The position numbers and the translations under genes are program-made. A stretch of 64,000 nt of DNA from Escherichia phage vB_EcoP_HC-25922, in sequence record OQ555404.1. One strand, written 5' to 3'. Position 1 is the stretch's first letter; every line of letters starts with the position of its first letter. Shown here piece by piece: positions 54,433-64,000 of the stretch. Below the pieces are notes generated by a model. The model saw nothing but the letters and a program-made list of their open reading frames with translations. It searched no databases and was not told the DNA's origin.

Positions 54433-55650
54433 CTATTTATTAAAGAATAGTTTTTCCATAATGGTTTCCCACTCTTCTGAGGGGAGGGTTGAGAACCCGT
54501 TTCCGTGAAGCCTGTTTGTCATGCAACTAATAATATTGTACATGTTGTAGCTTCGGGTGGATTCTGTTCCATTGTTCCAGTTATAACCGAAAACAATTTT
54601 ATCGAAGGAGGTTTTATCCGTAGTTACTTCTCGGATAAACTCAACCAAGAGCGATTTCTCTGTGATGACCGCACGTTCACCATCTGGCAGATTGCAATAC
54701 TGAGGAAGAAGGATTGGTAAGAACATCGAATTGTTCACTCGACAATCACGAACACCTTCACTGCGATAGATTAGGCTTGAGAAGTCTTCATCACGCAGGT
54801 GTCCTTCACCTTCAGTGTATTCACACTGTCGCCACTTGGTCTGGCGAGGCTCAATCATTGTACTACCAACGCCTACTGTATACAGAGACGCTTGGAAAAT
54901 ACATGAATCGTAATCATTCCCTGTTAAAGCAACTTGCTCGTTGCCGAACACATCCACTGAAGAGTTAATCAGTCGGCTGAATGCAAGAGAGGCTAAAGGG
55001 GACCAGCCTTTCTTATACATCTTGTTCAGCATTTCATACACAGCAGATTTTTCATCATCTGTATAGAATGTACGATTCAGCATCAGATAGAACAGAGCGC
55101 GATCAGCAGGACAACCATCAGTACAAACACCCATGAATCCTACTTCATGCCATACCAGACATGAGTCAGAATCTTTATCCATGAATGCTTCAAAGGCTTC
55201 CATTACAGCCCTGTCAGTAACATCAGGACGGTTGTTTTCTTCTGCCCATGTTTCTACATGAGAAGGAGGACGAGGGTCTCCATTCTCCACCCCTTCGCGG
55301 AAATATTGAGTGGTAATAGGCTTTTTATCACCATAACGTTTTACACCATAAGCGGGAAGGTGTGTACCAGAGTTCCAGATGTACTTAATTTCGGACATAG
55401 GCATCATGTTTTCGAGAACGTTCTCTTCAGCAGTGCCTTGACGAACCATCATATTTTCACTCCACACCTTAATGCGGATATTCCAGCCGTAGTTGCTGTC
55501 ATACGTGTTATAATAATCAGGATCACCATCTTCATCTTCATCATAATCACCACCCTGATAGTAACCTGCTTTCAGGAAACCATAACAAGGAGGCCAAACA
55601 GTTACAACGTCTTCTGATTCTTTCCAGCTTTGAAGTGTTACAGGGAACAT
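54433..55650 (-). CDS. hypothetical protein
   Basis: start set at MFPVTLQ with AAAGAGG RBS, just after the upstream stop. Confidence 0.4.
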   Translation of the reverse strand: MFPVTLQSWKESEDVVTVWPPCYGFLKAGYYQGGDYDEDEDGDPDYYNTYDSNYGWNIRIKVWSENMMVRQGTAEENVLENMMPMSEIKYIWNSGTHLPAYGVKRYGDKKPITTQYFREGVENGDPRPPSHVETWAEENNRPDVTDRAVMEAFEAFMDKDSDSCLVWHEVGFMGVCTDGCPADRALFYLMLNRTFYTDDEKSAVYEMLNKMYKKGWSPLASLAFSRLINSSVDVFGNEQVALTGNDYDSCIFQASLYTVGVGSTMIEPRQTKWRQCEYTEGEGHLRDEDFSSLIYRSEGVRDCRVNNSMFLPILLPQYCNLPDGERAVITEKSLLVEFIREVTTDKTSFDKIVFGYNWNNGTESTRSYNMYNIISCMTNRLHGNGFSTLPSEEWETIMEKLFFNK

Positions 55651-55660
55651 TTTTACCTCT

Positions 55661-56023
55661 TTACTCTGATACCAGAAGGCCCAGAGATTTGCGAATGTAG
55701 TCAATACTACGGAAGTTTCGATAGTTCTCTTGGAAGCGCATCTTTTCAAATTCAGCTTCCTGAAGTTCTAACTCTGCCGCTTTATATCCCGATAAAGCTA
55801 AACTCACCACATCCTGAGGCAAGACATTACGACGGCGAATAAGATATTTATTCGCTTTTAGTTTACCTTGTGCACGAGCCATTTTGGCCTTTGCCGCCTT
55901 GATACCATGAGAAATCCAAAGCAGTTGCTGTTTCAGATCTTCCTCATCCATACCACCTAAGTCATTTGCTACTTTATGAAGCGTAGACAGGTTCACATGG
56001 CCTTTAATGGGGCGTAGGTTCAT
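55661..56023 (-). CDS. hypothetical protein (helical, basic)
   Basis: 120 aa ORF; its ATG overlaps the stop of the small gene 56020-56187. Confidence 0.4.
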   Translation of the reverse strand: MNLRPIKGHVNLSTLHKVANDLGGMDEEDLKQQLLWISHGIKAAKAKMARAQGKLKANKYLIRRRNVLPQDVVSLALSGYKAAELELQEAEFEKMRFQENYRNFRSIDYIRKSLGLLVSE

Positions 56024-56187
56024 AACTTCTCCTGTTTGTCACATTGATTGGTTAGCCAGTTGTAAGACCCTCTGTTATTCTTGCTTAACTCGCAAGATGC
56101 AAAAGAGTACATCCTGACAAACCCCACAGTGGCTAAGCAAATAAAGATTGCTGCCAATAAGAACTTAACTTTCAACTTATTATCCAT
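56020..56187 (-). CDS. small membrane protein (55 aa, below ORF-track cutoff)
   Basis: MDNKLKVKFLLAAIFICLATVGFV...; AAGAAGAGG RBS 5 nt upstream. Confidence 0.3.
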   Translation of the reverse strand: MDNKLKVKFLLAAIFICLATVGFVRMYSFASCELSKNNRGSYNWLTNQCDKQEKL

Positions 56188-56296
56188 ACAACCTCTTCTT
56201 TGAACTTAAAAAAGGACTCTCCTAAGAGAGCCAAGCTTTAAGGCCAATTAAATAGATATCACCCAATATCTGTGGATAACCTGCTCTTAAAATATT

Positions 56297-56433
56297 CTAT
56301 CCGACGGATGTTCGAGGATTATTCCTCTCCCTAGCATCGGCCCCATACGGGAAAGATTAAATTAAGTTTAGGTTAGTTGAGCCAGAATAGCTCACATAGC
56401 CCTCTGATACTCACAAGGGCTATAGATGTTACT
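56297..56433 (-). repeat. conserved noncoding element, copy A
   Basis: shares ordered blocks (ctatc, gatgtt, tctctccctagc, tcacatagccctctgata, gatgttact) and a hairpin with copy B. Confidence 0.5.
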
Positions 56434-56677
56434 CTGCGGCTCCGTCGAATCGGAGGATTGCTGCTGGAACAGGGTATACTTCCAGATCTTCATCCAGTCG
56501 GTACAGGTGCCCTGTGCTTAAATTTACAGCTGTTACTGGCTTAGAATGACCTCCAGCCTGTATGGAAGGGACTCTGATAAAGAACTCTTCCGGATATTCA
56601 ACAGAGTGGAACACACTCCCTGAATAGAGATTCTTTATTTTGGAAGTTTGTTTAGGAGTTTTATCGGCAATTTGCAT
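56429..56677 (-). CDS. small protein, GD.F-family paralog
   Basis: 82 aa; one of six small proteins sharing an L..L.PGD[VF]F-type N-terminal motif. Confidence 0.4.
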   Translation of the reverse strand: MQIADKTPKQTSKIKNLYSGSVFHSVEYPEEFFIRVPSIQAGGHSKPVTAVNLSTGHLYRLDEDLEVYPVPAAILRFDGAAE

Positions 56678-56910
56678 TACAGACCTTTCTTAGCACGATC
56701 TTTGGCAGTTTTGCCAGTGCGGATACGATGGGAAACATTAACCAGCTCGCCACCTTCGACGATGGTCACGCTTTTGTTTTTCGCAATATCAAACACAGTT
56801 TTCTCTGTACCGCCCAGACGAATCTGTTTAGGCTCGCTGTGGGTCTGAGTTGATTTAGACTGGAACTGGAACGGCTGACGGATGGCATCAATTGCACTAG
56901 CTTTAGACAT
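56677..56910 (-). CDS. hypothetical small protein
   Basis: 77 aa ORF. Confidence 0.35.
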   Translation of the reverse strand: MSKASAIDAIRQPFQFQSKSTQTHSEPKQIRLGGTEKTVFDIAKNKSVTIVEGGELVNVSHRIRTGKTAKDRAKKGL

Positions 56911-56937
56911 ATTTTATTACCTTAAATTAAAGAGATA

Positions 56938-57351
56938 TTAAACAACGAATTGGAACGCTTCGTATCCAAACTTGTATAAGAAATCGTGTTTGAACTTTAC
57001 TACACGACCACGATCGCGGAAAGCTTTCAGGCGACTGCTGAACCCAACCATTGGCTCAGGGTCAATAGGGCTACGAATCTTCATAGCTATAGAGTGCAGC
57101 TTGAAGCGTTTACCAGTGCTACAGGCCATCATCACATACTCCATACGAGTAGTCCAGATGTTGAGCACCATGCTTGTTTTCTCCGCTGACCAACCAGTCT
57201 TGCGGGCGATTTCTTTATGGACATTAAGCTCCAAAGGAAGAGGGAATTGCTTGTTGAATGAAGCCGGATATAGCTTGACCAGAAGGTCAATGTTTTCTTT
57301 ATACGTTAAGTAAGCCAATTTCTTGCTTACGTTAGGGAATTTCCCAGACAT
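56938..57351 (-). CDS. hypothetical protein
   Basis: 137 aa ORF. Confidence 0.4.
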   Translation of the reverse strand: MSGKFPNVSKKLAYLTYKENIDLLVKLYPASFNKQFPLPLELNVHKEIARKTGWSAEKTSMVLNIWTTRMEYVMMACSTGKRFKLHSIAMKIRSPIDPEPMVGFSSRLKAFRDRGRVVKFKHDFLYKFGYEAFQFVV

Positions 57352-57549
57352 TTTTGAAGCTCCAAAACAGCGCCGAAAAGAGAGGCGTCATAGTAGCTAA
57401 AAGGAGGAGAGAAGAGGGCTTATTTACTTGCTTTTTTCTGTCCGTTAATGTACCAGATAACTGAACCGTCAGGCTGTCGTTGACCGAAGCCTTTCAAGTT
57501 AACCATTTCTTCTTCAGAGTAGGCACGTTTTCTCACTGATTTTCTCCTG

Positions 57550-57807
57550 TCAGTAGAAGGTGTGTGTAGAGTCGTCGTTCATAGATAACCAAACGAAGAA
57601 GACAATCACACAGAAAGCAATAATACCGAGAGTTGCAAGGATTATAGTGTTAGCTAATGTGATATCTAACACGCTTTGCAGATACATAAAGAACTGTACG
57701 ACACCACATACCATCAGCACAACCCCAACGACAATGAGGAGCCAATATGTGCAGAGAAGGACTGCATCTAATAGTGATACATACTTTGGATGATCTTTAT
57801 GTCTCAC
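57550..57807 (-). CDS. small membrane protein (2-3 predicted transmembrane segments)
   Basis: 85 aa, strongly hydrophobic. Confidence 0.35.
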   Translation of the reverse strand: MRHKDHPKYVSLLDAVLLCTYWLLIVVGVVLMVCGVVQFFMYLQSVLDITLANTIILATLGIIAFCVIVFFVWLSMNDDSTHTFY

Positions 57808-58063
57808 TGATCTTTTCCACTAAATCCAGAGTTGCTGATTCAAATACAACACCAACTACCATATTAGGTGCCATATTACGAACGTATCCGCTCTGCATAG
57901 ACACGGCCCGAGAGTATTCAGAACCGTTAGAACTTTTGTTTACCTTCATGTAAAGGGTTTGCTCTTTATCTTCTTTCAGAGTAAAGAAAGAGCCGGGAAG
58001 AAGCCTCTGAACAGTCAGAGGGATATCTGCAACATGAGTCTTATTGATAGTAAGAACTGTCAT
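57797..58063 (-). CDS. small protein, GD.F-family paralog
   Basis: QRLLPGSFFTL...TLYMKVN. Confidence 0.35.
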   Translation of the reverse strand: MTVLTINKTHVADIPLTVQRLLPGSFFTLKEDKEQTLYMKVNKSSNGSEYSRAVSMQSGYVRNMAPNMVVGVVFESATLDLVEKISET

Positions 58064-58066
58064 TGC

Positions 58067-58321
58067 TTATTCCTTAATAGTTGCTTCAGCTTTAATAGGA
58101 ATAACAGCAACATCTTTACGAGGTGCTGTCGCTCGACCTGTGTTAAGGCAGGCTACAAGTCTATGCTCGTCCGCACCCTTGATGCAGAGTCGAGTTGAGA
58201 ACTCAGTAGACAGCAAGATGTACAAATCATCATCTTCACTGTTAGGGTACATGAAGCAATCCCCAAGTCGTAAAGCACTGAGAGGTATTGCACTCTTACC
58301 TGCTGGTTTATTAACTTTCAT
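58067..58321 (-). CDS. small protein, GD.F-family paralog
   Basis: LSALRLGDCFMY...DLYILLS; start set at internal MKVNKP. Confidence 0.35.
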   Translation of the reverse strand: MKVNKPAGKSAIPLSALRLGDCFMYPNSEDDDLYILLSTEFSTRLCIKGADEHRLVACLNTGRATAPRKDVAVIPIKAEATIKE

Positions 58322-58661
58322 TTTACCACCTTTAATTATGGACCAAATAAAAACTATCGGGGAGTGCACTAGCTCTGGGCCACGTTGTGAACATCGGCCT
58401 ACCTTTCACAACTAATTAGCTAATACACTCTCCGATAGTTTATAAATAGGGGGAGGGGACGAATCCTCCCATATCCTATTAATTAATATTGCATGTAAGA
58501 CCTAACAATCCGATGCTGTAGTGGATAGCGTAAAACGCTTACCGGCATTAAACCCAGCCCATGAGGGGCTTATGTGATTAAAATGCTCAACATTGAGCGG
58601 TTAGTTGATAGGAGATCTGAAGTCCTATCTCAAAGGACTCTCGTAAGAATCCTTCACGATA

Positions 58662-58928
58662 TTACTTAGTAATAAAGACTGTCATCTTATTCATTACCCA
58701 GCCTATTAACATAAGTAGAGGTAAGAGGAAGATAAAGATCAGCATAAAAGGCCAAAAGAATATTACCGTCCAAATAGAATATTCATCAGGCTTACCACTC
58801 CATGAGGAATGGAAGAAGTTGTAGAGTGTATTGGTTTTGAAGCACCACTTAACTACAATGGCAGCTAACCACCAACCAATAACATAAATCAGGAGGACAT
58901 ACGCTGCTGTAACCATTGACCGTTCCAT
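58662..58928 (-). CDS. small membrane protein
   Basis: 88 aa with 3 hydrophobic segments. Confidence 0.35.
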   Translation of the reverse strand: MERSMVTAAYVLLIYVIGWWLAAIVVKWCFKTNTLYNFFHSSWSGKPDEYSIWTVIFFWPFMLIFIFLLPLLMLIGWVMNKMTVFITK

Positions 58929-59143
58929 TGATAGTTGCGAGTGACCACGTTTCCGTGGATAAGGAAGTGCTGGCGGCGAAGGATATCTTTAACGTTGTAA
59001 TAGGCAGCGTTTCCTAGATGACCTTCTTTAATAAGCCAACGAAGATTACGGATATCAACCAACAGCATTTTTACTTGCTGTTGGCATGAAGTTTGAGCCG
59101 CTGTTTCAAGTAGAGCTTTCGTATCAGAATAATGACCAGACAT
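58889..59143 (-). CDS. hypothetical small protein
   Basis: 84 aa ORF. Confidence 0.3.
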   Translation of the reverse strand: MSGHYSDTKALLETAAQTSCQQQVKMLLVDIRNLRWLIKEGHLGNAAYYNVKDILRRQHFLIHGNVVTRNYQWNGQWLQQRMSS

Positions 59144-59144
59144 A

Positions 59145-59471
59145 TCACCACTCCTTACCTGTTGTTGTCACAGAACCACCACACAGCTCACCACGGGAGA
59201 TGAAGTCATAACGTGACCAATCACCTTGGGTAGCCATATCACGATCTGCATAAGCTTTCTCGTCAACAGCACCGCCATTGGAACAAGAAGCACCAGCATA
59301 ACGCATATCAATTTCACCACTAGGAATCTTCTCCCCGCTATGCCAACGGGAAACGCATACACCCTCTACAGCTACTGCACACCACCCATCAGGACGATGC
59401 TGTACACAGCCTGTAAGAGCTACACAGGCGATAAAGATACAGGTTAAGGTAATTACACCACCCCAGCTCAT
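59145..59471 (-). CDS. putative lipoprotein, Cys-rich
   Basis: signal peptide with lipobox LTGC, then a Cys-rich soluble part. Confidence 0.4.
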   Translation of the reverse strand: MSWGGVITLTCIFIACVALTGCVQHRPDGWCAVAVEGVCVSRWHSGEKIPSGEIDMRYAGASCSNGGAVDEKAYADRDMATQGDWSRYDFISRGELCGGSVTTTGKEW

Positions 59472-59626
59472 GATCCCTCCTGAAGCGCCTTACGGCGGCT
59501 ATCTCGCCAAGCCATCCATAGGTAGGTTTTAAGTTCTTCTCTTTCTTCTTCGCTGAACAAAGGAGAAGTAAAGATATCATCGAACCACTCATTAAACTCA
59601 GGGGTCATAAACCCTCCTATTTGATT

Positions 59627-59653
59627 TGGTGGACTATCTGGAATCGAACCAGA
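59627..59653 (-). other. tRNA 3'-half-like fragment (T-arm plus acceptor 3' strand)
   Basis: minus-strand TCTGG-TTCGATT-CCAGA T-arm followed by TAGTCCACCA; no complementary 5' acceptor strand found. Confidence 0.3.
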
Positions 59654-59752
59654 AGCTCACTAAGAAAGCAATTCCCACTGTTATAAAAGCACTTGCCTCA
59701 ACAGGGATACACTAACTCTGGTGCCGTACCCATACTAGCCCTTGTTTAAAAT

Positions 59753-59780
59753 TGGTCGGGACGGAAGGATTCGAACCCTC
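59753..59780 (-). other. tRNA 3'-half-like fragment ending in CCA
   Basis: minus-strand GAGGG-TTCGAAT-CCTTC T-arm followed by CGTCCCG-A-CCA; no room for a full tRNA. Confidence 0.3.
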
Positions 59781-59804
59781 CTACGTTGATTTAAAAGCTC
59801 TTAG

Positions 59805-59883
<79 letters not shown>

Positions 59884-59906
59884 ATTAAGAGCTTTCAATA
59901 TTTTGT

Positions 59907-60116
59907 TTAACTGAAAATACGCAAGGCCACATCATGACCGATATGACCGGGAACTTTGTGCTGCTCTATTTTCAAACAGAGTTTACAAACACGAGACACA
60001 CGAGACTCTTTCGCTTCGACTGGAGTGTCTTTAGCGTGAGTGATGTGTAGGTTTTCAGTGATCACCCACTCGTGTTTACATCCAGAATCTTCGGGCTTTT
60101 TCTTACGAAAGAACAT
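59907..60116 (-). CDS. small Cys/His protein, tandem paralog 1
   Basis: CKHEW...RVCKLC; start set at internal MFFRKKK. Confidence 0.35.
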   Translation of the reverse strand: MFFRKKKPEDSGCKHEWVITENLHITHAKDTPVEAKESRVSRVCKLCLKIEQHKVPGHIGHDVALRIFS

Positions 60117-60124
60117 AACACCTC

Positions 60125-60289
60125 TTAGATCAGATCTGTTTTCTTGTGCAGACCACACACTTTACAGCGAGAGTAGATACGCAACCCTTGTCGCTCTCTG
60201 TCAGTAAGTTTATTTGTGATCGTCAGTTCATAAGTATGAAGATCTTCCCACTCATGGAAATGAAAGAAACGTTTGAACCATTTAATCAT
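60125..60289 (-). CDS. small Cys/His protein, tandem paralog 2 (54 aa, below ORF-track cutoff)
   Basis: MIKWFKRFFHFHEWEDL...RCKVCGLHKKTDLI read from the minus strand. Confidence 0.35.
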   Translation of the reverse strand: MIKWFKRFFHFHEWEDLHTYELTITNKLTDRERQGLRIYSRCKVCGLHKKTDLI

Positions 60290-60298
60290 AATGATTCC

Positions 60299-60460
60299 TT
60301 AGATTACATCACGATGACTAACATCACCACACACCTTACACTGAATAACGTAACGTGTGCCCTTGTCATTGTTCCCATCTGAATCTGTATAGACCAGAGG
60401 ACGGGTGTTAATAATCTTCCAATCATGACAATGGAAGACACGCTTTAGCCATTTAATCAT
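60299..60460 (-). CDS. small Cys/His protein, tandem paralog 3
   Basis: MIKWLKRVFHCHDWKII...QCKVCGDVSHRDVI; start set at internal MIKW. Confidence 0.35.
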   Translation of the reverse strand: MIKWLKRVFHCHDWKIINTRPLVYTDSDGNNDKGTRYVIQCKVCGDVSHRDVI

Positions 60461-60461
60461 A

Positions 60462-60719
60462 CTAAGCACACGCCGGTAATTCAATTAACTGAGGAGTACG
60501 ACAAGGGCCATCCTCATACACACCTACTAGTGTTGGCATGTAAGGCCCAGCGCACTGGTATTCATCGAACAGTTCATTGTAAGTAGGCTTCCACTTCCAA
60601 GCCCACACATAACCCATTCGATCAATGGCAATGTAACGAGTGTTCAGAGGAACCTGCATCATCACATCACCAACTGCTATTACTTTCGTAATAACTACTG
60701 CTCGGAAGTTTGTCTTCAT
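60462..60719 (-). CDS. hypothetical small protein
   Basis: 85 aa ORF. Confidence 0.35.
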   Translation of the reverse strand: MKTNFRAVVITKVIAVGDVMMQVPLNTRYIAIDRMGYVWAWKWKPTYNELFDEYQCAGPYMPTLVGVYEDGPCRTPQLIELPACA

Positions 60720-61024
60720 GACTTTGCAGCCTCCATCATTTTATTCATTTTAGCCACACCTTTACGGATAAGAGGCATAAATTCATCAGCCAGTTCAGTG
60801 GATAAAAGTTTAAGCCCGCCTGATTTAATACCGTTCACCGCCTTCTCAACTTCATCCGACAGCAATGTCATTGTTAACCACGGGGATTTTATTACCACAG
60901 TAAAGCCCGGTTCATACCGCGAGTGACTGTAGGTGAACTCTAAATGAGTAACACCGGGCATCTTAGACATTTGAGCACGGATATCTACATTAGGGTTGCA
61001 GCGAGTTGAAGATGAAATTGTCAT
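60716..61024 (-). CDS. hypothetical protein
   Basis: 102 aa ORF. Confidence 0.4.
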   Translation of the reverse strand: MTISSSTRCNPNVDIRAQMSKMPGVTHLEFTYSHSRYEPGFTVVIKSPWLTMTLLSDEVEKAVNGIKSGGLKLLSTELADEFMPLIRKGVAKMNKMMEAAKS

Positions 61025-61272
61025 GGCGCTTTAATCTCAATCTGAACGTTGACGACGAATACAGTATGGTTTGCACTGTACACTGAAGTGCCTATGATTG
61101 GCTTATCATCACTGAGGATTTCAACAGCGTGCTCAAGGTTAATCTTCAGATGAAGACGCCCTGATTCCATGAAGAAATCACCAGCACGTATCTCACCGAA
61201 CTTAGCTGGCACACCGATAGAGGGTATCAGTATGTCAGTGCGACCTTTACGGTCAAATAAACGATTGAACAT
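61021..61272 (-). CDS. small protein, GD.F-family paralog
   Basis: FGEIRAGDFFME...RLHLKIN. Confidence 0.35.
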   Translation of the reverse strand: MFNRLFDRKGRTDILIPSIGVPAKFGEIRAGDFFMESGRLHLKINLEHAVEILSDDKPIIGTSVYSANHTVFVVNVQIEIKAP

Positions 61273-61281
61273 ATCAACCCC

Positions 61282-61491
61282 TTATGTAATATCAACCTCA
61301 AACCAACAGGTAAGAGCTTTTTCATTGTTGCGTTTTGGCTCAAAGGATTTAACAACCGATAATACTCGGCGCTGTTCTCCATCAAACCAGATAGTTTCAT
61401 CTTTTTCAGGGAGTAGGTTGTGTGCAGCACAAACGATTTCACCTAGCACAACCTGTCTGCCATCTTGCTTACGAACTAAACGAATGTTCAT
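61282..61491 (-). CDS. hypothetical small protein
   Basis: start set at MNIRLVRK with AGAGAGG RBS after the terminator. Confidence 0.35.
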   Translation of the reverse strand: MNIRLVRKQDGRQVVLGEIVCAAHNLLPEKDETIWFDGEQRRVLSVVKSFEPKRNNEKALTCWFEVDIT

Positions 61492-61534
61492 AACAACCTC
61501 TCTTGTTAGTTTAAGTAAGAGTTGTCCCTTAATT

Positions 61535-61567
61535 AAAACAACAAAGGCCACCCCTAAGGGCAGCCTC
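61535..61567 (-). terminator. rho-independent terminator (minus strand)
   Basis: minus-strand GGCTGCCC-TTAG-GGGTGGCC followed by TTTGTTGTTTT. Confidence 0.5.
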
Positions 61568-61571
61568 TTAT

Positions 61572-61775
61572 TTAAGCGCAAGCACTACGCAGTTTGTTAT
61601 TCAAGAAGCGATCTTCTGCATTATACAGGAATGCATAGAACAACTCTTTTGCTACATCCCGATCGCAATTGAGACATTTAGAGATCTGTAACAACAAACC
61701 ATCACGACTATTAGGATGGTCAATTATCGCAAGACGAATAATCTCACGAATACCAATGTCATGCTCAGCCGCCAT
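61572..61775 (-). CDS. hypothetical small protein
   Basis: ORF 61572-61787 taken from its internal ATG (MAAEHD). Confidence 0.3.
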   Translation of the reverse strand: MAAEHDIGIREIIRLAIIDHPNSRDGLLLQISKCLNCDRDVAKELFYAFLYNAEDRFLNNKLRSACA

Positions 61776-61905
61776 AGAACCAATCACCCTGACGTTTACG
61801 AATGTTAGTTGTCAGACGAAGCATGGCAGACTCAATCTTCAGAGCACCATTTGCTACTGCATCCATACGTTCAGGACGGTTCATACGTTTGGTTGTCTTT
61901 TTCAT
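61765..61905 (-). CDS. small basic protein (46 aa, below ORF-track cutoff)
   Basis: MKKTTKRMNRPERMDAVANGALKIESAMLRLTTNIRKRQGDWFYGG. Confidence 0.3.
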   Translation of the reverse strand: MKKTTKRMNRPERMDAVANGALKIESAMLRLTTNIRKRQGDWFYGG

Positions 61906-62085
61906 AATGTTCTCTCTTTATTGATGGAGGCAGGATTGCCAGTTAATATAAAGGGAAGCCCTACACGTCAAGGCTTCCGCTTGTACAAACTGTCGAGAAC
62001 TCTCTACCCCTAGATTGTTCTCTATCCCAAACCGATACATACCCCTACATATCGGAATGCCATTCGAAAATTAACAGGTTTTAGT

Positions 62086-62212
62086 CTATCACCGGATGTT
62101 TGAGACAAGTCTCTCCCTAGCGGTGAGCCATATGGCGTTGAGATTATAGTTAATTGAGGAACATCCTCACATAGCCCTCTGATAAACACAAGAGCTATAA
62201 GTCGATGTTACT
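62086..62212 (-). repeat. conserved noncoding element, copy B
   Basis: second copy of the element at 56297-56433, same orientation, again abutting the stop of a GD.F-family gene. Confidence 0.5.
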
Positions 62213-62432
62213 TGTTGGTTAGTCGTGCGTTAGGTACAGGTCTGACTACAGTCGATTTACACTCAGAATCACGCTTACCTGTATAAAGGTTAACAAAATA
62301 ACTTTTGTTTTCACCATAACACGCAGTACGCATGTAGTATTGAGTTTCATTGTAGTTAAACTGGAAGACTTCACCCGGATTTAGGTCTCCGAGAGTTACA
62401 ACCTCTGGCGTACTATCAATGTCAATCTTCAT
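62208..62432 (-). CDS. small protein, GD.F-family paralog
   Basis: VTLGDLNPGEVFQF...QYYMRTA. Confidence 0.4.
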   Translation of the reverse strand: MKIDIDSTPEVVTLGDLNPGEVFQFNYNETQYYMRTACYGENKSYFVNLYTGKRDSECKSTVVRPVPNARLTNK

Positions 62433-62663
62433 TTAACCACCAATATTAGTCACTTGAACATCAAATACAGGGATAACTTCATGATGTTCCTGTAACTGGA
62501 ATAGTGTTCCCTGACGAAGACCAACCACACGATGCATATCATTCAGGCAGGTGTCTGTCTTTAGATAGAGGTGTTCAGAGTTAGTTGGTAGACGGAATAC
62601 GTCACCCGGACGTAGATCGCTGAGCTTTTTAGTAACAACTAAAGATGGGAGATTAATTTTCAT
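62433..62663 (-). CDS. small protein, GD.F-family paralog
   Basis: KLSDLRPGDVFRL...HLYLKTD. Confidence 0.4.
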   Translation of the reverse strand: MKINLPSLVVTKKLSDLRPGDVFRLPTNSEHLYLKTDTCLNDMHRVVGLRQGTLFQLQEHHEVIPVFDVQVTNIGG

Positions 62664-62854
62664 TTGATTAACACCAAATCAGTACGACGTTCGAAGGAAG
62701 GGGAGGATTCACCATTCCACTGAACAAGATAACAGAGAACACCATCAATCGTTGTTCTCCGACGAATAACACCTGTAACAGTTCCACCAACAAGGCGAAC
62801 GGTGTCGCCAACGGTAAATTTAACCTTTGAGCGCATCTCCCGTTTCCTCATTCT
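62660..62854 (-). CDS. hypothetical small protein
   Basis: C-terminal part of ORF 62660-62989 from an internal Met (KFTVGDTVRLVGG...). Confidence 0.3.
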   Translation of the reverse strand, partial: RMRKREMRSKVKFTVGDTVRLVGGTVTGVIRRRTTIDGVLCYLVQWNGESSPSFERRTDLVLIK

Positions 62855-63125
62855 GGCGTTTAATTTCTTCAGTGAGTTGCTTATTAAGATCTTGAATACG
62901 TTTAATCTCCCAACCCAAAGAAGCCAAACGATCGTTACGTGCTTCGATTTGTTCCTGCATTTTAAGTAATTTGGAACGAACATCAGCATTAAAAACTTCT
63001 TCTTGCTTAAGAAGGAACTCGTAACGACGCTTCCAGCTTGCTGATTTGTTTCTTAAAATAATAAATCCTAGAGTAGAAACAGTTACAGTGAGTACGAAAA
63101 GGAACTTATAAACCTCTAAAGACAT
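62820..63125 (-). CDS. membrane-anchored coiled-coil protein
   Basis: N-terminal transmembrane segment FLFVLTVTVSTLGFIIL then helical region. Confidence 0.4.
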   Translation of the reverse strand: MSLEVYKFLFVLTVTVSTLGFIILRNKSASWKRRYEFLLKQEEVFNADVRSKLLKMQEQIEARNDRLASLGWEIKRIQDLNKQLTEEIKRQNEETGDALKG

Positions 63126-63326
63126 ATCTTTATCCTCTTAAAGTAAGATATTATAAGAAATATTATTTAGAATTTATTATTTCTAAACTTAATTCCTATC
63201 AATAATTTTCAGAGGTCTATATACAGTCATTACCTCTGGTCCCAAATCACTTCCACTTTTTACAGAGAAAATCATAAGTGTGTGATTTATAAGGAAATTT
63301 AGTTTGTCAATATTGGCACTTATGAA

Positions 63327-63713
63327 TCAGTCACGGGAGCTATTATTGAACACTAAATCACCACAATACATCGGATTGGTATACCACTTTGGCACCCCTT
63401 CGCTCTTACTCTGAAAGTATGTACCGCTGTACAAAGGCACATAACCTTTCTTCAGTGCACGCCTTGCAAGCCGCTCGCTCTCTCTGATTGATTTCTTTAT
63501 CAGAGGGTTATCATCACGAATTAGCTTTACATAACGCTTAAAAGGTTTCTCCTTCTTTAATAGGACGGGTATCCACTCGAACTGGTTTCGTTGATTTATA
63601 ACCTGCTCGGCAGTCAGTTTTCGTTGTGACATTCTGTTTATTACGGTATCCGCTACTAATGCTTTGCAAGCGGTTGGCTGATTCCCTGCCTCATAATAAA
63701 TAGTCAATGTCAA
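63327..63713 (-). CDS. SleB-like cell wall hydrolase domain protein
   Basis: IYYEAG.QP..CKALVADTVINR...QFEW and C-terminal YF....P.WYTNP...GDLVF parallel SleB-type hydrolase motifs; start is non-ATG (TTG) and uncertain. Confidence 0.45.
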   Translation of the reverse strand: MTLTIYYEAGNQPTACKALVADTVINRMSQRKLTAEQVINQRNQFEWIPVLLKKEKPFKRYVKLIRDDNPLIKKSIRESERLARRALKKGYVPLYSGTYFQSKSEGVPKWYTNPMYCGDLVFNNSSRD

Positions 63714-63763
63714 AAGTAGCTGGGCTGTCGTTATCAGAACTTACTACCCCCTTGTTTTACGGG

Positions 63764-63791
63764 CATAAAAAAGCCCCATCCGAAGACGGGG
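63764..63791 (-). terminator. rho-independent terminator (minus strand)
   Basis: minus-strand CCCCGTC-TTCG-GATGGGG followed by CTTTTTTAT. Confidence 0.6.
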
Positions 63792-63845
63792 CGGCCTGAA
63801 AAGTGAACATGACTTCACTCATTTAAGAATCCTCGTAAAGACTCT

Positions 63846-63870
63846 TAAAAAAGAGGCCTCGTTAAAGGCC
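63846..63870 (-). terminator. rho-independent terminator (minus strand)
   Basis: minus-strand GGCCT-TTAACG-AGGCC followed by TCTTTTTT. Confidence 0.5.
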
Positions 63871-63950
63871 CGGTCAAATGACCATCCAATAGGGATTGAA
63901 CCATGCCAATGATTCACAAAGGGAGTTCCCTTTAGGCATCACTAGCTACG

Positions 63951-63972
63951 AAAAAAGCCGCACAAAGGCGGC
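63951..63972 (-). terminator. rho-independent terminator (minus strand)
   Basis: minus-strand GCCGC-CTTTGT-GCGGC followed by TTTTTT. Confidence 0.55.
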
Positions 63973-64000
63973 AGACAAAGACGCTCAAGAAGAGCGTCAT

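What the first reader, a model, noticed from the sequence alone, without database searches (positions are those of the whole stretch)
56297..62212. Two copies of a roughly 130-nt conserved noncoding element, each abutting the stop codon of a paralogous small gene
Seen in sequence: 56297-56433 and 62086-62212 share ordered blocks (ctatc, gatgtt, tctctccctagc, tcacatagccctctgata, cacaag, gctata, gatgttact) in the same orientation. Each begins at the TAA of a GD.F-family gene (56429-56677, 62208-62432) and forms a conserved hairpin in the transcript (AUAGCCCU...AGGGCUAU) with no U-tract. Each precedes a further 200-250 nt of noncoding sequence and then a small gene. A weaker related stretch may exist near 58500-58560. 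Inference: a duplicated RNA structural or regulatory element, or an unrecognised small mobile unit.
Basis: partly seen in the sequence, partly recalled or inferred. Interest (0 to 1): 0.6.

Follow-up and report, generated by a model that had tools for sequence, protein, structure and literature searches.

The report
Conserved structured RNA in phage early operon
The two repeats are paralogous copies of an undescribed, multi-hairpin RNA element carried inside the early messages of phiEco32-like phages, and one copy also holds a 34-base stretch antisense to the leader of the host's anaerobic ribonucleotide reductase mRNA.

Summary
Copy A (56206-56434) and copy B (61945-62213), both on the minus, gene-sense strand, belong to one structured-RNA family. 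A covariance model scores them 170 and 154 bits and finds nothing else in the window. About 100 Gordonclarkvirinae genomes carry two syntenic copies. Moazamivirus carries one, and divergent copies occur in Citrovirus phages and a metagenomic phage contig. Compensatory changes support six or more helices: 96-98% of cells paired, against 34-53% when partners are slid. G·U pairs fit only the sense strand, and stable tetraloops replace one another. An internal loop (CUAGGG[A/C] / [G/A]AACAU) is nearly invariant. No Rfam family matches. The copies are therefore not a decaying duplication, and I found no sign of mobility. Copy A ends in a canonical terminator. It also carries 34 nt matching the region 10-43 nt upstream of E. 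coli nrdD, in antisense orientation, in 5423 of 5426 genomes; this stretch includes a perfect DnaA box. My best reading is a noncoding RNA module made from early transcripts that docks a conserved host factor, with copy A also pairing with the nrdD leader. The mechanism is inferred, not shown. The rivals are a put-like antiterminator, a processing site or ribozyme, and a DnaA site on DNA.

The parts
56206..56434 (-). Copy A, whole unit: from the stop codon of the upstream ORF to the end of the terminator U tract
   Evidence: Covariance-model hit at 56246-56434, 170.3 bits. The 59-pair structure is 98.3% paired, against 34-53% when partners are slid. Single-sequence fold z=-2.65.
56425..56434 (-). 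A: 5' motif GAGUAACAUC, containing the UAA stop (56429-56431) of ORF 56429-56677; it can pair with GUUAUUC (helix P0, an alternative to P2)
56395..56424 (-). A: helix P1 hairpin (UAUAGCCCU...AGGGCUAUG)
   Evidence: 97-99% paired. In relatives the loop is replaced by C(UUCG)G or U(UACG)A tetraloops, and the stem is fully covaried in L053.
56379..56393 (-). A: helix P2 hairpin (GAGC UAUUCUG GCUC)
   Evidence: Compensatory U-A to C-G change in the window lineage; G-C in the B copies.
56362..56375 (-). A: 5' strand of the long-range stem (UAACCU...CUUAA), which pairs with 56277-56290
   Evidence: Helices 4 and 5. Three pairs in LR2 change on both sides; LR1 is invariant.
56342..56351 (-). A: helix P3 hairpin (CCC GUAU GGG)
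   Evidence: 100% paired; C-G to G-C swaps between A, B and Moazamivirus copies.
56301..56340 (-). A: invariant core. P4 (CCGAUG/CGUCGG) encloses the internal loop CUAGGGA / GAACAU and hairpin P5 (GAGG..CCUC)
   Evidence: P4 is 99% paired with 3-4 pairs changed on both sides. Loop sequences are kept even in L053. The position next to P5 is A·G in 16, A·A in 4 and C·A in 4 sequences, never C·G.
56262..56295 (-). A only: 34 nt, AUAUUUUAAGAGCAGGUUAUCCACAGAUAUUGGG, matching the E. coli chromosome 10-43 nt upstream of the nrdD start codon; the phage RNA is antisense to the nrdD leader
   Evidence: 32/34 identity, E=4e-4 against 28 Gb. The shorter 29/31 match is present in 5423 of 5426 genomes.
56271..56279 (-). 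A only: perfect DnaA-box consensus TTATCCACA; it overlaps the 3' strand of the long-range stem
   Evidence: GGTTATCCACA is invariant in 13 of 13 A-type copies, including Moazamivirus.
56254..56271 (-). A: helix P6 hairpin with a G-rich loop (AGAUAU UGGGUG AUAUCU)
   Evidence: absent in 7-11 and SeKF_80
56206..56241 (-). A: intrinsic terminator (core hairpin 56215-56232, U6 tract) with an A-rich 5' flank that pairs with the U tail
   Evidence: helices 10 and 11 are 100% paired; annotated as a terminator in SU7 and 7-11
61945..62213 (-). Copy B, whole unit: from the stop codon of ORF 62208-62432 to the tail of the last hairpin
   Evidence: Covariance-model hit at 62025-62213, 153.8 bits. The 65-pair structure is 96.1% paired, against 38-49% when slid. 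Fold z=-2.85.
62170..62200 (-). B: helix P1 hairpin
   Evidence: helix 2
62156..62168 (-). B: helix P2 hairpin (GAGG AUGUU CCUC). Its loop can instead pair with the 5' motif AACAUC (P0)
   Evidence: P0 pair 9/50 is C-G in 8, U-G in 2 and U-A in 1 sequence.
62089..62136 (-). B: P3 (62127-62136) and the P4/internal-loop/P5 core (62089-62126)
62032..62055 (-). B: helix P6 hairpin with loop UAGGGGUA
   Evidence: helix 8, 97% paired
61995..62023 (-). B: helix P7 hairpin with loop CUAGGGGUAG
   Evidence: helix 9; 4 pairs changed on both sides
61945..61978 (-). B: helix P8 hairpin plus the tail CUUUAUAUU. It looks like a terminator in this window, but the U tract is poor in most relatives
   Evidence: helix 10
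58320..58672 (-). Element C: a third conserved structured intercistronic element. It is its own family, also present in phage 7-11, and is at most distantly related to A and B
   Evidence: A/B model 9.3 bits, E=0.08

Best explanation
SHOWN: A and B are paralogous members of an undescribed family of structured RNA elements, about 190-270 nt long. They are transcribed as part of the phage's early, gene-sense messages. Each starts at the stop codon of one small gene and ends in a hairpin placed just before the ribosome-binding site of the next gene. The fold is a scaffold of covarying helices: P1, P2, P3, P4-P5, P6, plus a long-range stem in A and P7-P8 in B. This scaffold surrounds a nearly invariant asymmetric internal loop, CUAGGG[A/C] / [G/A]AACAU. 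G-rich loops (UAGGGGUA or UUGGGUR) recur in the 3' hairpins.

INFERRED (my committed mechanism): the unit is an autonomous noncoding-RNA module, not a regulator of a particular neighbouring gene. It is produced from the abundant early transcripts. In copy A it would form the 3'-terminal domain of transcripts that stop at its own terminator, like a 3'-UTR-derived small RNA; read-through would supply the downstream genes. The invariant internal loop would dock a conserved host component, which would explain why the sequence is held constant across phage families that share few genes. Copy A carries an added 3' module. Its 34-nt stretch can form a 33/34-pair duplex (one G·U, one U·U) with the host nrdD mRNA leader, ending one nucleotide before the Shine-Dalgarno sequence. 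This predicts control, most simply silencing, of the anaerobic ribonucleotide reductase. Copy A's terminator, with an A-rich 5' flank paired to the U tail, has the form preferred by ProQ/FinO-type RNA chaperones. The window encodes one such protein 500 nt upstream.
For: Family and structure. These cover covariation, the slide and shuffle controls, tetraloop replacement, and the divergent copies (L053 at 65 bits, Klyazma at 29 bits, CVT22 at 23 bits), each found in an intercistronic gap that starts at a stop codon.

Strand: many G·U pairs work only on the sense strand.

No known family matches.

Autonomy: the upstream and downstream genes differ between phage groups while the element is kept.

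No promoter-like site lies in the A or B gaps, and neither the gp36 promoter motif nor boxA occurs anywhere in 55500-63500.

Terminator.

nrdD match. A-type copies score 30-31 against a shuffle mean of 10 and maximum of 17. B, C and the Citrovirus copies score at background.

ProQ-type 3' end: helix 10, compared with the features described in PMC7367173. ProQ/FinO-like gene at 56938-57351.
Against: No transcript data were available, so a discrete RNA species is unproven. The element has no promoter of its own. Copy B lacks a good terminator in most phages, so its 3' end would need processing. The host factor is unnamed. The nrdD match exists only in A-type copies, so it cannot explain the function of the family as a whole. 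The Salmonella phages match the E. coli leader as well as they match the Salmonella leader, so there is no host-specific co-variation. The best-conserved part of the match is exactly a DnaA box, which also forms one strand of a helix, so the similarity could reflect a DNA site or a structural constraint. That the matched region lies inside the nrdD 5' UTR is inferred from the position of the FNR and NrdR boxes, not from a mapped start site. The phage ProQ/FinO gene is absent from phiEco32 and SU10, which still carry both copies.
Confidence: 0.4

Rival explanations
1. A cis-acting transcription-elongation element, like HK022 put, Tn916 canT or a nut site. The nascent RNA, alone or with a phage or host protein, would modify host RNA polymerase so that it reads through the terminator after A, other terminators, and Rho-dependent sites in the long early transcription unit.
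For: Published promoter maps place the sigma-70 early promoters only at the far right end, with the next promoter about 26 kb downstream (SU10 table S2). The 7-11 paper states that an antitermination strategy 'remains to be defined'. Copy A sits directly upstream of a strong conserved terminator, which is followed within about 20 nt by the next gene's ribosome-binding site, so read-through is obligatory. RNA antiterminators are a heterogeneous class ranging from about 70 to 450 nt. Two copies per genome recalls putL and putR.
Against: The elements lie 5-19 kb from the known early promoters, not close to them. Strong terminators also lie upstream of B at 63750-64000. In 7-11 almost no terminator-like sites follow A on the sense strand, so a processive function would have little to act on. 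A constitutive antiterminator placed next to its own terminator has no obvious purpose. Copy B has no real terminator after it in most phages. No boxA was found. No conserved alternative pairing with the terminator stem was seen by inspection.
Confidence: 0.2
2. An RNA processing or stability signal that punctuates the polycistronic early message. It would be a recognition structure for a host RNase or a new self-cleaving ribozyme. Cutting would separate operon segments, and the folded 3' domains left behind would protect the upstream mRNA.
For: The elements occupy intercistronic positions at three junctions (A, B, C) in an operon that also contains tRNA genes, which must be excised. A small invariant internal loop set in covarying helices is the typical pattern of ribozyme cores and of protein-recognised processing sites. 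Stable UNCG, CUUG and GNRA tetraloops are typical of stabiliser hairpins.
Against: No known ribozyme or processing-site family matches. P4 plus P5 gives only about 10 bp, too short for an RNase III site of the T7 type. Simple 3'-end protection would not require sequence invariance across phage families. No cleavage data exist.
Confidence: 0.17
3. For the A-specific 3' module only: a DNA-level site. A perfect DnaA box with host-like flanks would bind host DnaA, acting as a roadblock or regulator at the operon junction, titrating DnaA, or forming part of a replication origin.
For: TTATCCACA is the exact consensus and is invariant in all A-type copies from both phage families. The homologous host segment, AGAACAGGTTATCCACAGA, is conserved upstream of nrdD in E. 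coli, Salmonella, Citrobacter and Klebsiella. The E. coli leader holds a second perfect box. This suggests a real DnaA site in the host.
Against: The match to the host extends 34 nt, far beyond a 9-bp box. The box is also one strand of a helix whose extension covaries. B, L053 and the Citrovirus copies lack it, so it cannot be the family's function. I found no paper in the held library describing a DnaA site at nrdD.
Confidence: 0.1
4. A riboswitch or attenuator. The junction formed by P3, P4 and P5 would bind a metabolite or protein and set the fate of the terminator after A.
For: The architecture is a three-way junction with an invariant internal loop followed by a terminator. In Gordonclarkvirinae and Moazamivirus, A precedes the conserved amidoligase and glutamine-amidotransferase gene cluster.
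Against: No Rfam aptamer matches. By inspection I found no conserved, mutually exclusive pairing between the element and the terminator stem. B and the Citrovirus copies lack both a proper terminator and that gene cluster directly downstream.
Confidence: 0.06
5. A neutral remnant of a segmental duplication, or a small mobile element, with no function of its own.
For: The upstream genes of A and B are weak paralogues. EcoN5 shows that segmental duplications do occur in this region. In the window lineage, P1 of copy A looks as if it was converted by B.
Against: Both paralogues are kept in about 100 genomes. The element is about 70% identical between phage families whose neighbouring genes do not align. 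Covariation preserves all the helices. Positions are syntenic and there are no terminal repeats.
Confidence: 0.02

Closest known systems
3'-UTR-derived and other trans-acting small RNAs of enterobacteria and their phages (ProQ- or Hfq-associated; for example the FinP/FinO and RocR/RocC pairs)
   Same: It lies at the end of a coding unit, is co-transcribed, and (in copy A) ends in an intrinsic terminator whose A-rich 5' flank pairs with the U tail. It has extended complementarity to a host mRNA leader next to the ribosome-binding site. A FinO-domain protein is encoded nearby in this phage and in Moazamivirus.
   Different: It is much larger and more elaborately folded than typical small RNAs, and the invariant part is an internal loop rather than a single-stranded seed. 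The antisense stretch is 34 nt and looks host-derived. The second paralogue has neither a target match nor a good terminator. No transcript or chaperone data exist.
HK022 put RNAs and other RNA processive antiterminators (EAR, Tn916 canT, pLS20 conAn2)
   Same: It is a sense-strand structured RNA inside a long operon transcribed by host polymerase. It occurs as two related copies per genome and lies upstream of an intrinsic terminator that must be read through.
   Different: There is no sequence or structural similarity. At 190-270 nt with six or more helices it is far larger than the roughly 70-nt, two-stem put RNA. The copies lie kilobases from the promoters and in series on one strand. Few terminators lie downstream in 7-11.
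T7-group RNase III processing sites between early genes
   Same: They are repeated, related, structured intercistronic elements in an early operon, each with an asymmetric internal loop between two helices.
   Different: The helices flanking the loop total only about 10 bp rather than about 20. Several extra hairpins are present, and the loop sequence is conserved across phage families.
Orphan structured RNA motifs found by comparative genomics in phages and metagenomes (candidate-motif collections in Rfam)
   Same: It is defined by covariation and a conserved core, is phage-associated, and has no known function.
   Different: It matches none of the 4227 Rfam 15 models, at either the gathering threshold or at E<=10.

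Membership tests
Any described RNA family (Rfam 15) | Covariance-model score at or near the family's gathering threshold | tested here: not met
   The only real hit in the region is a tRNA at 59805-59883. Inside copy A the best hits are terminator-like matches to TarB and STnc100 at 21-22 bits, against gathering scores of 47-80.
tRNA / tmRNA | Cloverleaf detected by ARAGORN or the tRNA covariance model | tested here: not met
   nothing in A or B.
Intrinsic (Rho-independent) terminator, 3' end of copy A | G+C-rich hairpin followed by a U tract | tested here: met
   56232-56215, 7 pairs, tail CTTTTTTAAG. Conserved with covariation. Annotated as a terminator in SU7 and 7-11.
Intrinsic terminator, 3' end of copy B | Hairpin followed by a U tract, conserved among relatives | tested here: inconclusive
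   In the window, 61978-61954 passes the scan with tail CTTTATATTA. In most relatives the tail is CCGCUAUAUC or the loop carries a 70-nt insertion.
HK022 put RNA | About 70 nt, two stem-loops, located just downstream of an early promoter | tested here: not met
   The unit is 190-270 nt with six or more helices. No promoter-like site lies next to it. Known early promoters are kilobases away. put features were taken from PMC9378689.
HK022 put RNA | Acts in cis on the RNA polymerase beta' zinc-binding domain to suppress termination | not testable with these tools
   This needs transcription assays.
Lambda-type nut site | boxA (CGCUCUUA or GCUCUUUAA) followed by a boxB hairpin | tested here: not met
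   no boxA-like sequence on the sense strand between 55500 and 63500.
phiEco32 gp36 (phage sigma) promoter | tAATGTAtA motif near -10 | tested here: not met
   no TAATGTAT in the region. The motif is as given in PMC4331800 and PMC4281155.
Sigma-70 promoter driving an independent small-RNA gene | -35 and -10 hexamers with 16-18 nt spacing upstream of the element, conserved among relatives | tested here: not met
   One search finds none in or next to A or B. Sequence upstream of the AGUAAC motif is not conserved between phages.
T7-type RNase III site | About two turns (roughly 20 bp) of coaxial double helix around an internal loop (feature stated from general knowledge) | tested here: not met
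   P4 is 6 bp and P5 is 3-5 bp.
Riboswitch with a terminator expression platform | Conserved, mutually exclusive pairing between the aptamer's 3' part and the terminator's 5' arm | tested here: inconclusive
   Inspection of alignment A5 found only a 4-6 bp match (AAGAGC/GCUCUU) that is not kept in Moazamivirus. No formal search was run.
Trans-acting antisense or base-pairing RNA (copy A against nrdD) | Significant complementarity to a target mRNA at or near its ribosome-binding site | tested here: met
   32/34 identity to the antisense strand 10-43 nt upstream of the nrdD ATG, E=4e-4 against 28 Gb. Present in 5423 of 5426 genomes. Local alignment scores 30-31, against a shuffle maximum of 17.
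Trans-acting antisense or base-pairing RNA (copy A against nrdD) | Discrete stable transcript, and a regulatory effect on the target | not testable with these tools
   No transcriptome data for these phages were found in the held literature.
ProQ/FinO-type RNA ligand (3' end of copy A) | Terminator hairpin, at least 4 U in the tail, and an A-rich 5' flank pairing with the tail (PMC7367173) | tested here: met
   Helices 10 and 11 are 100% paired in 13 sequences, with a U6 tract. Actual binding was not tested.
DnaA box | 9-bp consensus TTATNCACA (stated from general knowledge) | tested here: met
   TTATCCACA at 56271-56279, invariant in 13 of 13 A-type copies. DnaA binding was not tested.
Miniature mobile element | Terminal inverted repeats, target-site duplication, and presence/absence polymorphism at varied sites | tested here: not met
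   One search shows no flanking repeats. Positions are the same syntenic ones in all genomes sampled.

The most novel reading that the evidence does not exclude
A modular phage regulatory RNA of a kind not yet described. An ancient, conserved scaffold shared by three podophage groups would engage a core host machine (RNA polymerase, ribosome, RNase or chaperone) through its invariant internal loop. One paralogue would have acquired a host-derived antisense module that targets the leader of the anaerobic ribonucleotide reductase mRNA. Alternatively, the invariant core could be a new ribozyme or a new RNA polymerase-modifying (antitermination) class, which would fill the gap noted for 7-11 and phiEco32 early transcription.
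Probability: 0.3. Interest if true: 0.85.

Novelty: new variant of a known kind. Interest (0 to 1): 0.7.

Why it matters
phiEco32-like phages (Kuravirus and relatives) are widely isolated for therapy, and their early program runs on host RNA polymerase across tens of kilobases. How that transcription passes internal terminators is an acknowledged open question. This analysis defines a covariation-supported RNA family at the junctions of that early region. The family is conserved more strongly than the surrounding genes across three phage groups and has no entry in Rfam. That gives experimenters a precise target, the internal loop and its helices, for deletion, end-mapping and binding studies. 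The 34-nt antisense match of copy A to the nrdD leader, present in essentially every E. coli genome, is a concrete and cheaply testable prediction of phage RNA control over host anaerobic dNTP synthesis. It may matter for phage growth in the gut.

Tried and rejected
- **Rfam scans** at the gathering threshold and at E<=10 found no family. ARAGORN found nothing in A or B.
- **Promoter readings.** No sigma-70-like site lies in or beside A or B, the gp36 motif is absent, and the upstream sequence is not conserved.
- **nut-like reading.** No boxA was found.
- **RNase III site.** The helices are too short.
- **Riboswitch.** No conserved antiterminator pairing was seen.
- **Mobile element.** No terminal repeats, and the positions are fixed.
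- **Second (B-like) copy in Moazamivirus.** Not found even with the filters off.
- **Element C as a family member.** Only 9.3 bits, so I treat it as separate.
- **Long-range stem in B, analogous to A's.** 76% paired with no covariation, so rejected.
- **phi32_92 as the ProQ-like gene syntenic with A in all phages.** Wrong: it is a membrane protein. The ProQ/FinO gene exists only in the Suseptimavirus-like subset and in Moazamivirus.
- **Host-specific co-variation between the phage module and the nrdD leader.** Not found. The Salmonella phages match the E. coli leader as well as the Salmonella leader.
- **Host matches for B and C.** None.
- **Whole-molecule RNAduplex energies.** Uninformative, because shuffled sequences scored as low.
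- **Literature.** The two primary phiEco32 papers (PMC2587145, PMC3275717) are not held. Searches found no description of this element.

Full report
**Identity of the window.** The region is 91-97% identical to Escherichia phages IME267, vB_EcoP-101114UKE3, SU7 and ECBP2. These are phiEco32-like podophages of the subfamily Gordonclarkvirinae. All genes between about 55.5 and 63.5 kb lie on the minus strand and belong to the early region of small genes.

**Check of the observation.**
- The stretches 56280-56440 and 62070-62222 align at 78% identity in the same orientation.
- The 19-mer CTCACATAGCCCTCTGATA occurs twice, against 0.02 expected.
- Each copy begins at the TAA of the upstream ORF, inside a shared motif AGUAAC.
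- The upstream ORFs are weak paralogues of a small-protein family with several members nearby.
- The stated 'further 200-250 nt of noncoding sequence' is too long. The true figures are about 110 nt for A and 180 nt for B, and that sequence is itself part of the conserved unit.

**Distribution.**
- BLAST finds copy A in 100 phage records, almost all with two places per genome. These include phiEco32 itself, where A lies between genes 91 and 90 and B between genes 113 and 112.
- Copy A is also present once, at about 70% identity, in the Salmonella phages 7-11, SeKF_80, SE131 and pSal-SNUABM-01. These belong to Grimontviridae (the first three to the genus Moazamivirus), and their neighbouring genes do not align with the window.
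- I built a covariance model (R1) from 24 A and B sequences. It scores the window copies 170.3 and 153.8 bits and finds no other copy in the 64 kb.
- Pattern scans of metagenome and genome collections, rescored with R1, recovered many further Gordonclarkvirinae and Moazamivirus-like contigs. They also recovered one very divergent member, at 65 bits, on a 48.7-kb MAG contig (L053). Its P1 and P4 stems have entirely different sequences but still pair, and it keeps the internal loop GCUAGGGCGAG...CUCAAACAUCCG.
- That contig is related to the Citrobacter and Klebsiella phages CVT22 and Klyazma (Zobellviridae, Citrovirus). Both carry weaker hits, 22.8 and 29.2 bits, exactly in an intercistronic gap that starts at a stop codon.
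- The family therefore spans three podophage groups, all of which also share a phage sigma factor and an amidoligase gene cluster.

**Structure.**
- RNAalifold and single-sequence folds agree on the architecture.
- On the mixed A, B and Moazamivirus alignment, helices P1, P3, P4 and P5 are 99-100% paired, with 1-3 pairs in each changed on both sides. The whole structure is 85% paired, against 33-51% when the partners are slid.
- On the alignment fitted to the model, 24 of 34 pairs show changes on both sides.
- For copy A, with 59 pairs and 13 sequences, 98.3% of cells pair, against 34-53% slid. For copy B, with 65 pairs and 11 sequences, the figures are 96.1% against 38-49%. No shuffle reaches the observed values.
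- Several pairs are G·U in most sequences (for example 111/142, 212/240 and 217/235). These would be A·C mismatches on the other strand, so the fold belongs to the gene-sense RNA.
- Loops are swapped for stable tetraloops. P1 is closed by C(UUCG)G in phiEco32 and by U(UACG)A in SeKF_80. P5 carries CUUG in the B copies. The terminator carries UUCG or GAAA.
- Between P4 and P5 lies an asymmetric internal loop, CUAGGG[A/C] / [G/A]AACAU, that barely varies.
- The two nucleotides next to P5 occur as A·G (16 sequences), A·A (4) or C·A (4) and never as a Watson-Crick pair. I read this as a non-canonical pair; that reading rests on general knowledge of RNA base-pair geometry.
- G-rich loops (UAGGGGUA, CUAGGGGUAG, UUGGGUR) recur in P6, P7 and the terminal hairpins, including those of Klyazma and L053.
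- The 5' motif can also pair with the strand that otherwise forms P2 (helix P0). Each alternative has one compensatory change in its favour, so I leave the choice open.
- A long-range stem encloses P3-P5 in copy A and shows covariation in its inner half. The analogous stem in B is not supported.

**Context.**
- No promoter-like site lies in or beside A or B, the phage-sigma motif is absent, and sequence upstream of AGUAAC is not conserved.
- Published maps for SU10 and phiEco32 place the sigma-70 early promoters only near the right genome end, with the next promoter about 26 kb downstream. For 7-11, only two early promoters at the extreme right end were validated, and the authors state that an antitermination strategy remains to be defined.
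- Copy A ends in a canonical, conserved terminator (56215-56232 plus U6). About 20 nt later comes the ribosome-binding site of the next gene. The downstream genes therefore depend on read-through.
- Copy B ends in a hairpin whose U tract is poor in most relatives.
- The genes on either side of the element differ between phage groups. The element is therefore not tied to a particular neighbour.

**An unexpected host match.**
- The 3' part of copy A (56262-56295, AUAUUUUAAGAGCAGGUUAUCCACAGAUAUUGGG) matches the E. coli chromosome at 32 of 34 positions in two genomes. The shorter 29/31 form is present in 5423 of 5426 complete genomes, at a single site 10-43 nt upstream of the nrdD start codon.
- The phage sense strand corresponds to the strand antisense to nrdD. 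The RNA could therefore form 27 + 6 base pairs, including one G·U and separated by one U·U mismatch, with the nrdD leader. The duplex would end one nucleotide before GGAG.
- FNR- and NrdR-box-like sequences lie about 200 nt upstream of the ATG (boxes as described in PMC2892513). I therefore infer that the matched region is transcribed as 5' UTR.
- The centre of the match is a perfect DnaA box, TTATCCACA. The host segment AGAACAGGTTATCCACAGA is conserved upstream of nrdD in Salmonella, Citrobacter and Klebsiella.
- All A-type copies score above shuffles against these leaders: 30-31 for the E. coli phages and 16-21 for the Salmonella phages, against a shuffle mean of about 10. B, C, L053 and the Citrovirus copies score at background.
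- The Salmonella phages are no closer to the Salmonella leader than to the E. coli leader. The similarity therefore looks ancestral rather than tuned to each host.
- The module is found only in this phage group in IMG/VR.

**A second lead.**
- The 137-aa ORF at 56938-57351 is a ProQ/FinO-like protein: Pfam 25.5 bits against a cut-off of 27, E=1.3e-5. Its 7-11 homologue scores 36.8 bits, and relatives are annotated as ProQ or RNA chaperones.
- According to PMC7367173, FinO domains bind terminator hairpins with at least 4 U, and ProQ ligands carry an A-rich 5' flank that pairs with the U tail. Copy A's terminator has exactly this form (helix 10).
- The gene is missing from phiEco32 and SU10, so it cannot be essential to the element. 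Host ProQ remains a candidate partner.

**Interpretation.**
- What is shown is a new, deeply conserved, sense-strand structured RNA family with two paralogues in this genome. It is not a decaying duplication or a mobile unit.
- The mechanism is inferred. I commit, at about 40%, to an autonomous noncoding-RNA module made from the early transcripts. For copy A this would be a 3'-UTR-type RNA that ends at its own terminator.
- On this reading the invariant internal loop docks a conserved host factor, and copy A additionally pairs with the nrdD leader.
- The main rival, at about 20%, is a put-, canT- or nut-like elongation element. It is attractive because of the unexplained long early transcription units. 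It is weakened by the distance from the promoters, the terminators upstream of B, the scarcity of terminators after A in 7-11 and the absence of a terminator after B in most phages.
- A processing or stability signal, or a new ribozyme (about 17%), a DnaA site on DNA for the A module (about 10%) and a riboswitch (about 6%) remain possible.

**Novelty.** No Rfam model matches and no paper in the held library describes the element. I file it as a new variant within the known kind 'phage-encoded structured regulatory RNA'. There is a real chance, about 30%, that it represents something further from known systems.

Noticed in passing
window 56938-57351 (-): This 137-aa ORF is a ProQ/FinO-like RNA chaperone (Pfam PF04352, 25.5 bits, just under the cut-off; the 7-11 homologue scores 36.8 bits). 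It is present only in the Suseptimavirus-like subset of Gordonclarkvirinae, in Moazamivirus, and in unrelated Erwinia and Aeromonas phages.
   Followed up: partly
window 58320-58672 (-): Element C is a third long, conserved, structured intercistronic element. Its P1-like hairpin has a UACG tetraloop, and it ends in the hairpin GGGAGG..CCUCCC followed by CCUAUUU. It is conserved in all Gordonclarkvirinae sampled and partly in 7-11 (L010:8731-8980), with compensatory changes. It is a separate family from A and B.
   Followed up: partly
window 59610-59910 (-): An unusual tRNA-like cluster of about 300 nt replaces the single canonical tRNA-Arg(UCU) of SU7 and phiEco32. ARAGORN calls nothing here. 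Rfam calls one 79-nt tRNA (59805-59883), flanked by a 22-nt inverted repeat. Two further T-arm/acceptor-like 3' halves ending in CCA follow it.
   Followed up: partly
E. coli locus L060:2492-2700 (nrdD leader): The nrdD leader holds two perfect DnaA boxes (TTATCCACA at 2519-2527 and 2594-2602) between the FNR/NrdR-box promoter region and the start codon. The proximal box, with its flanks, is conserved in Salmonella, Citrobacter and Klebsiella. I found no description of this in the held literature.
   Followed up: partly
window 63750-64000 (-): Two or three strong intrinsic terminators lie in tandem upstream of the SleB-like hydrolase gene 63327-63713. One is GCCCCGUCUUCGGAUGGGGCUUUUUU, with a UUCG loop. 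An AT-rich 200-nt gap with a TTGACA follows at 63126-63326. The early region is therefore not a single terminator-free unit.
   Followed up: no
window 61543-61568: A strong hairpin with U-rich tails on both strands (a bidirectional terminator-like site) lies about 460 nt downstream of copy B, between small early genes.
   Followed up: no
window 56395-56424 vs 62170-62200: In this lineage (window, SU7, ECBP2) the P1 hairpin of copy A carries the long loop typical of copy B. Other genera have a UUCG tetraloop there.
   Followed up: partly
window 56429-56677, 57797-58063, 58067-58322, 61021-61272, 62208-62432, 62433-62663 (-): A family of at least six paralogous small early proteins (about 74-88 aa) shares an N-terminal L..L.PGD.F-like motif. 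They fall in PHROGs 6570, 7431, 7832, 9955 and 16423; the function is unknown.
   Followed up: partly
L015 (phage EcoN5) 6482-6660 and 8000-8178: A segmental duplication of about 1.5 kb (genes gp96-gp93 plus copy A) gives this phage three copies of the element.
   Followed up: no
L053:1978-5668: In the divergent metagenomic phage, at least six small early ORFs end in ...EENE, with start/stop overlaps to the next ORF. This appears to be a repeated translational-coupling cassette.
   Followed up: no
L010 (phage 7-11) 7072-7784: A 700-nt unannotated noncoding gap follows the phi32_112 homologue. It contains two tRNA-like 3' ends (GGTTCGAATCC...CCCACC and GGTTCGACTCC...GCTCCA). ARAGORN reports only the annotated tRNA-Cys further downstream.
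   Followed up: no
window 61765-61905 (-): The gene directly after copy B encodes a 46-aa, strongly basic protein (MKKTTKRMNRPER...). It is one of the few early proteins conserved between phiEco32-like phages and 7-11. Its arginine- and lysine-rich N-terminus makes it a candidate RNA-binding partner.
   Followed up: no
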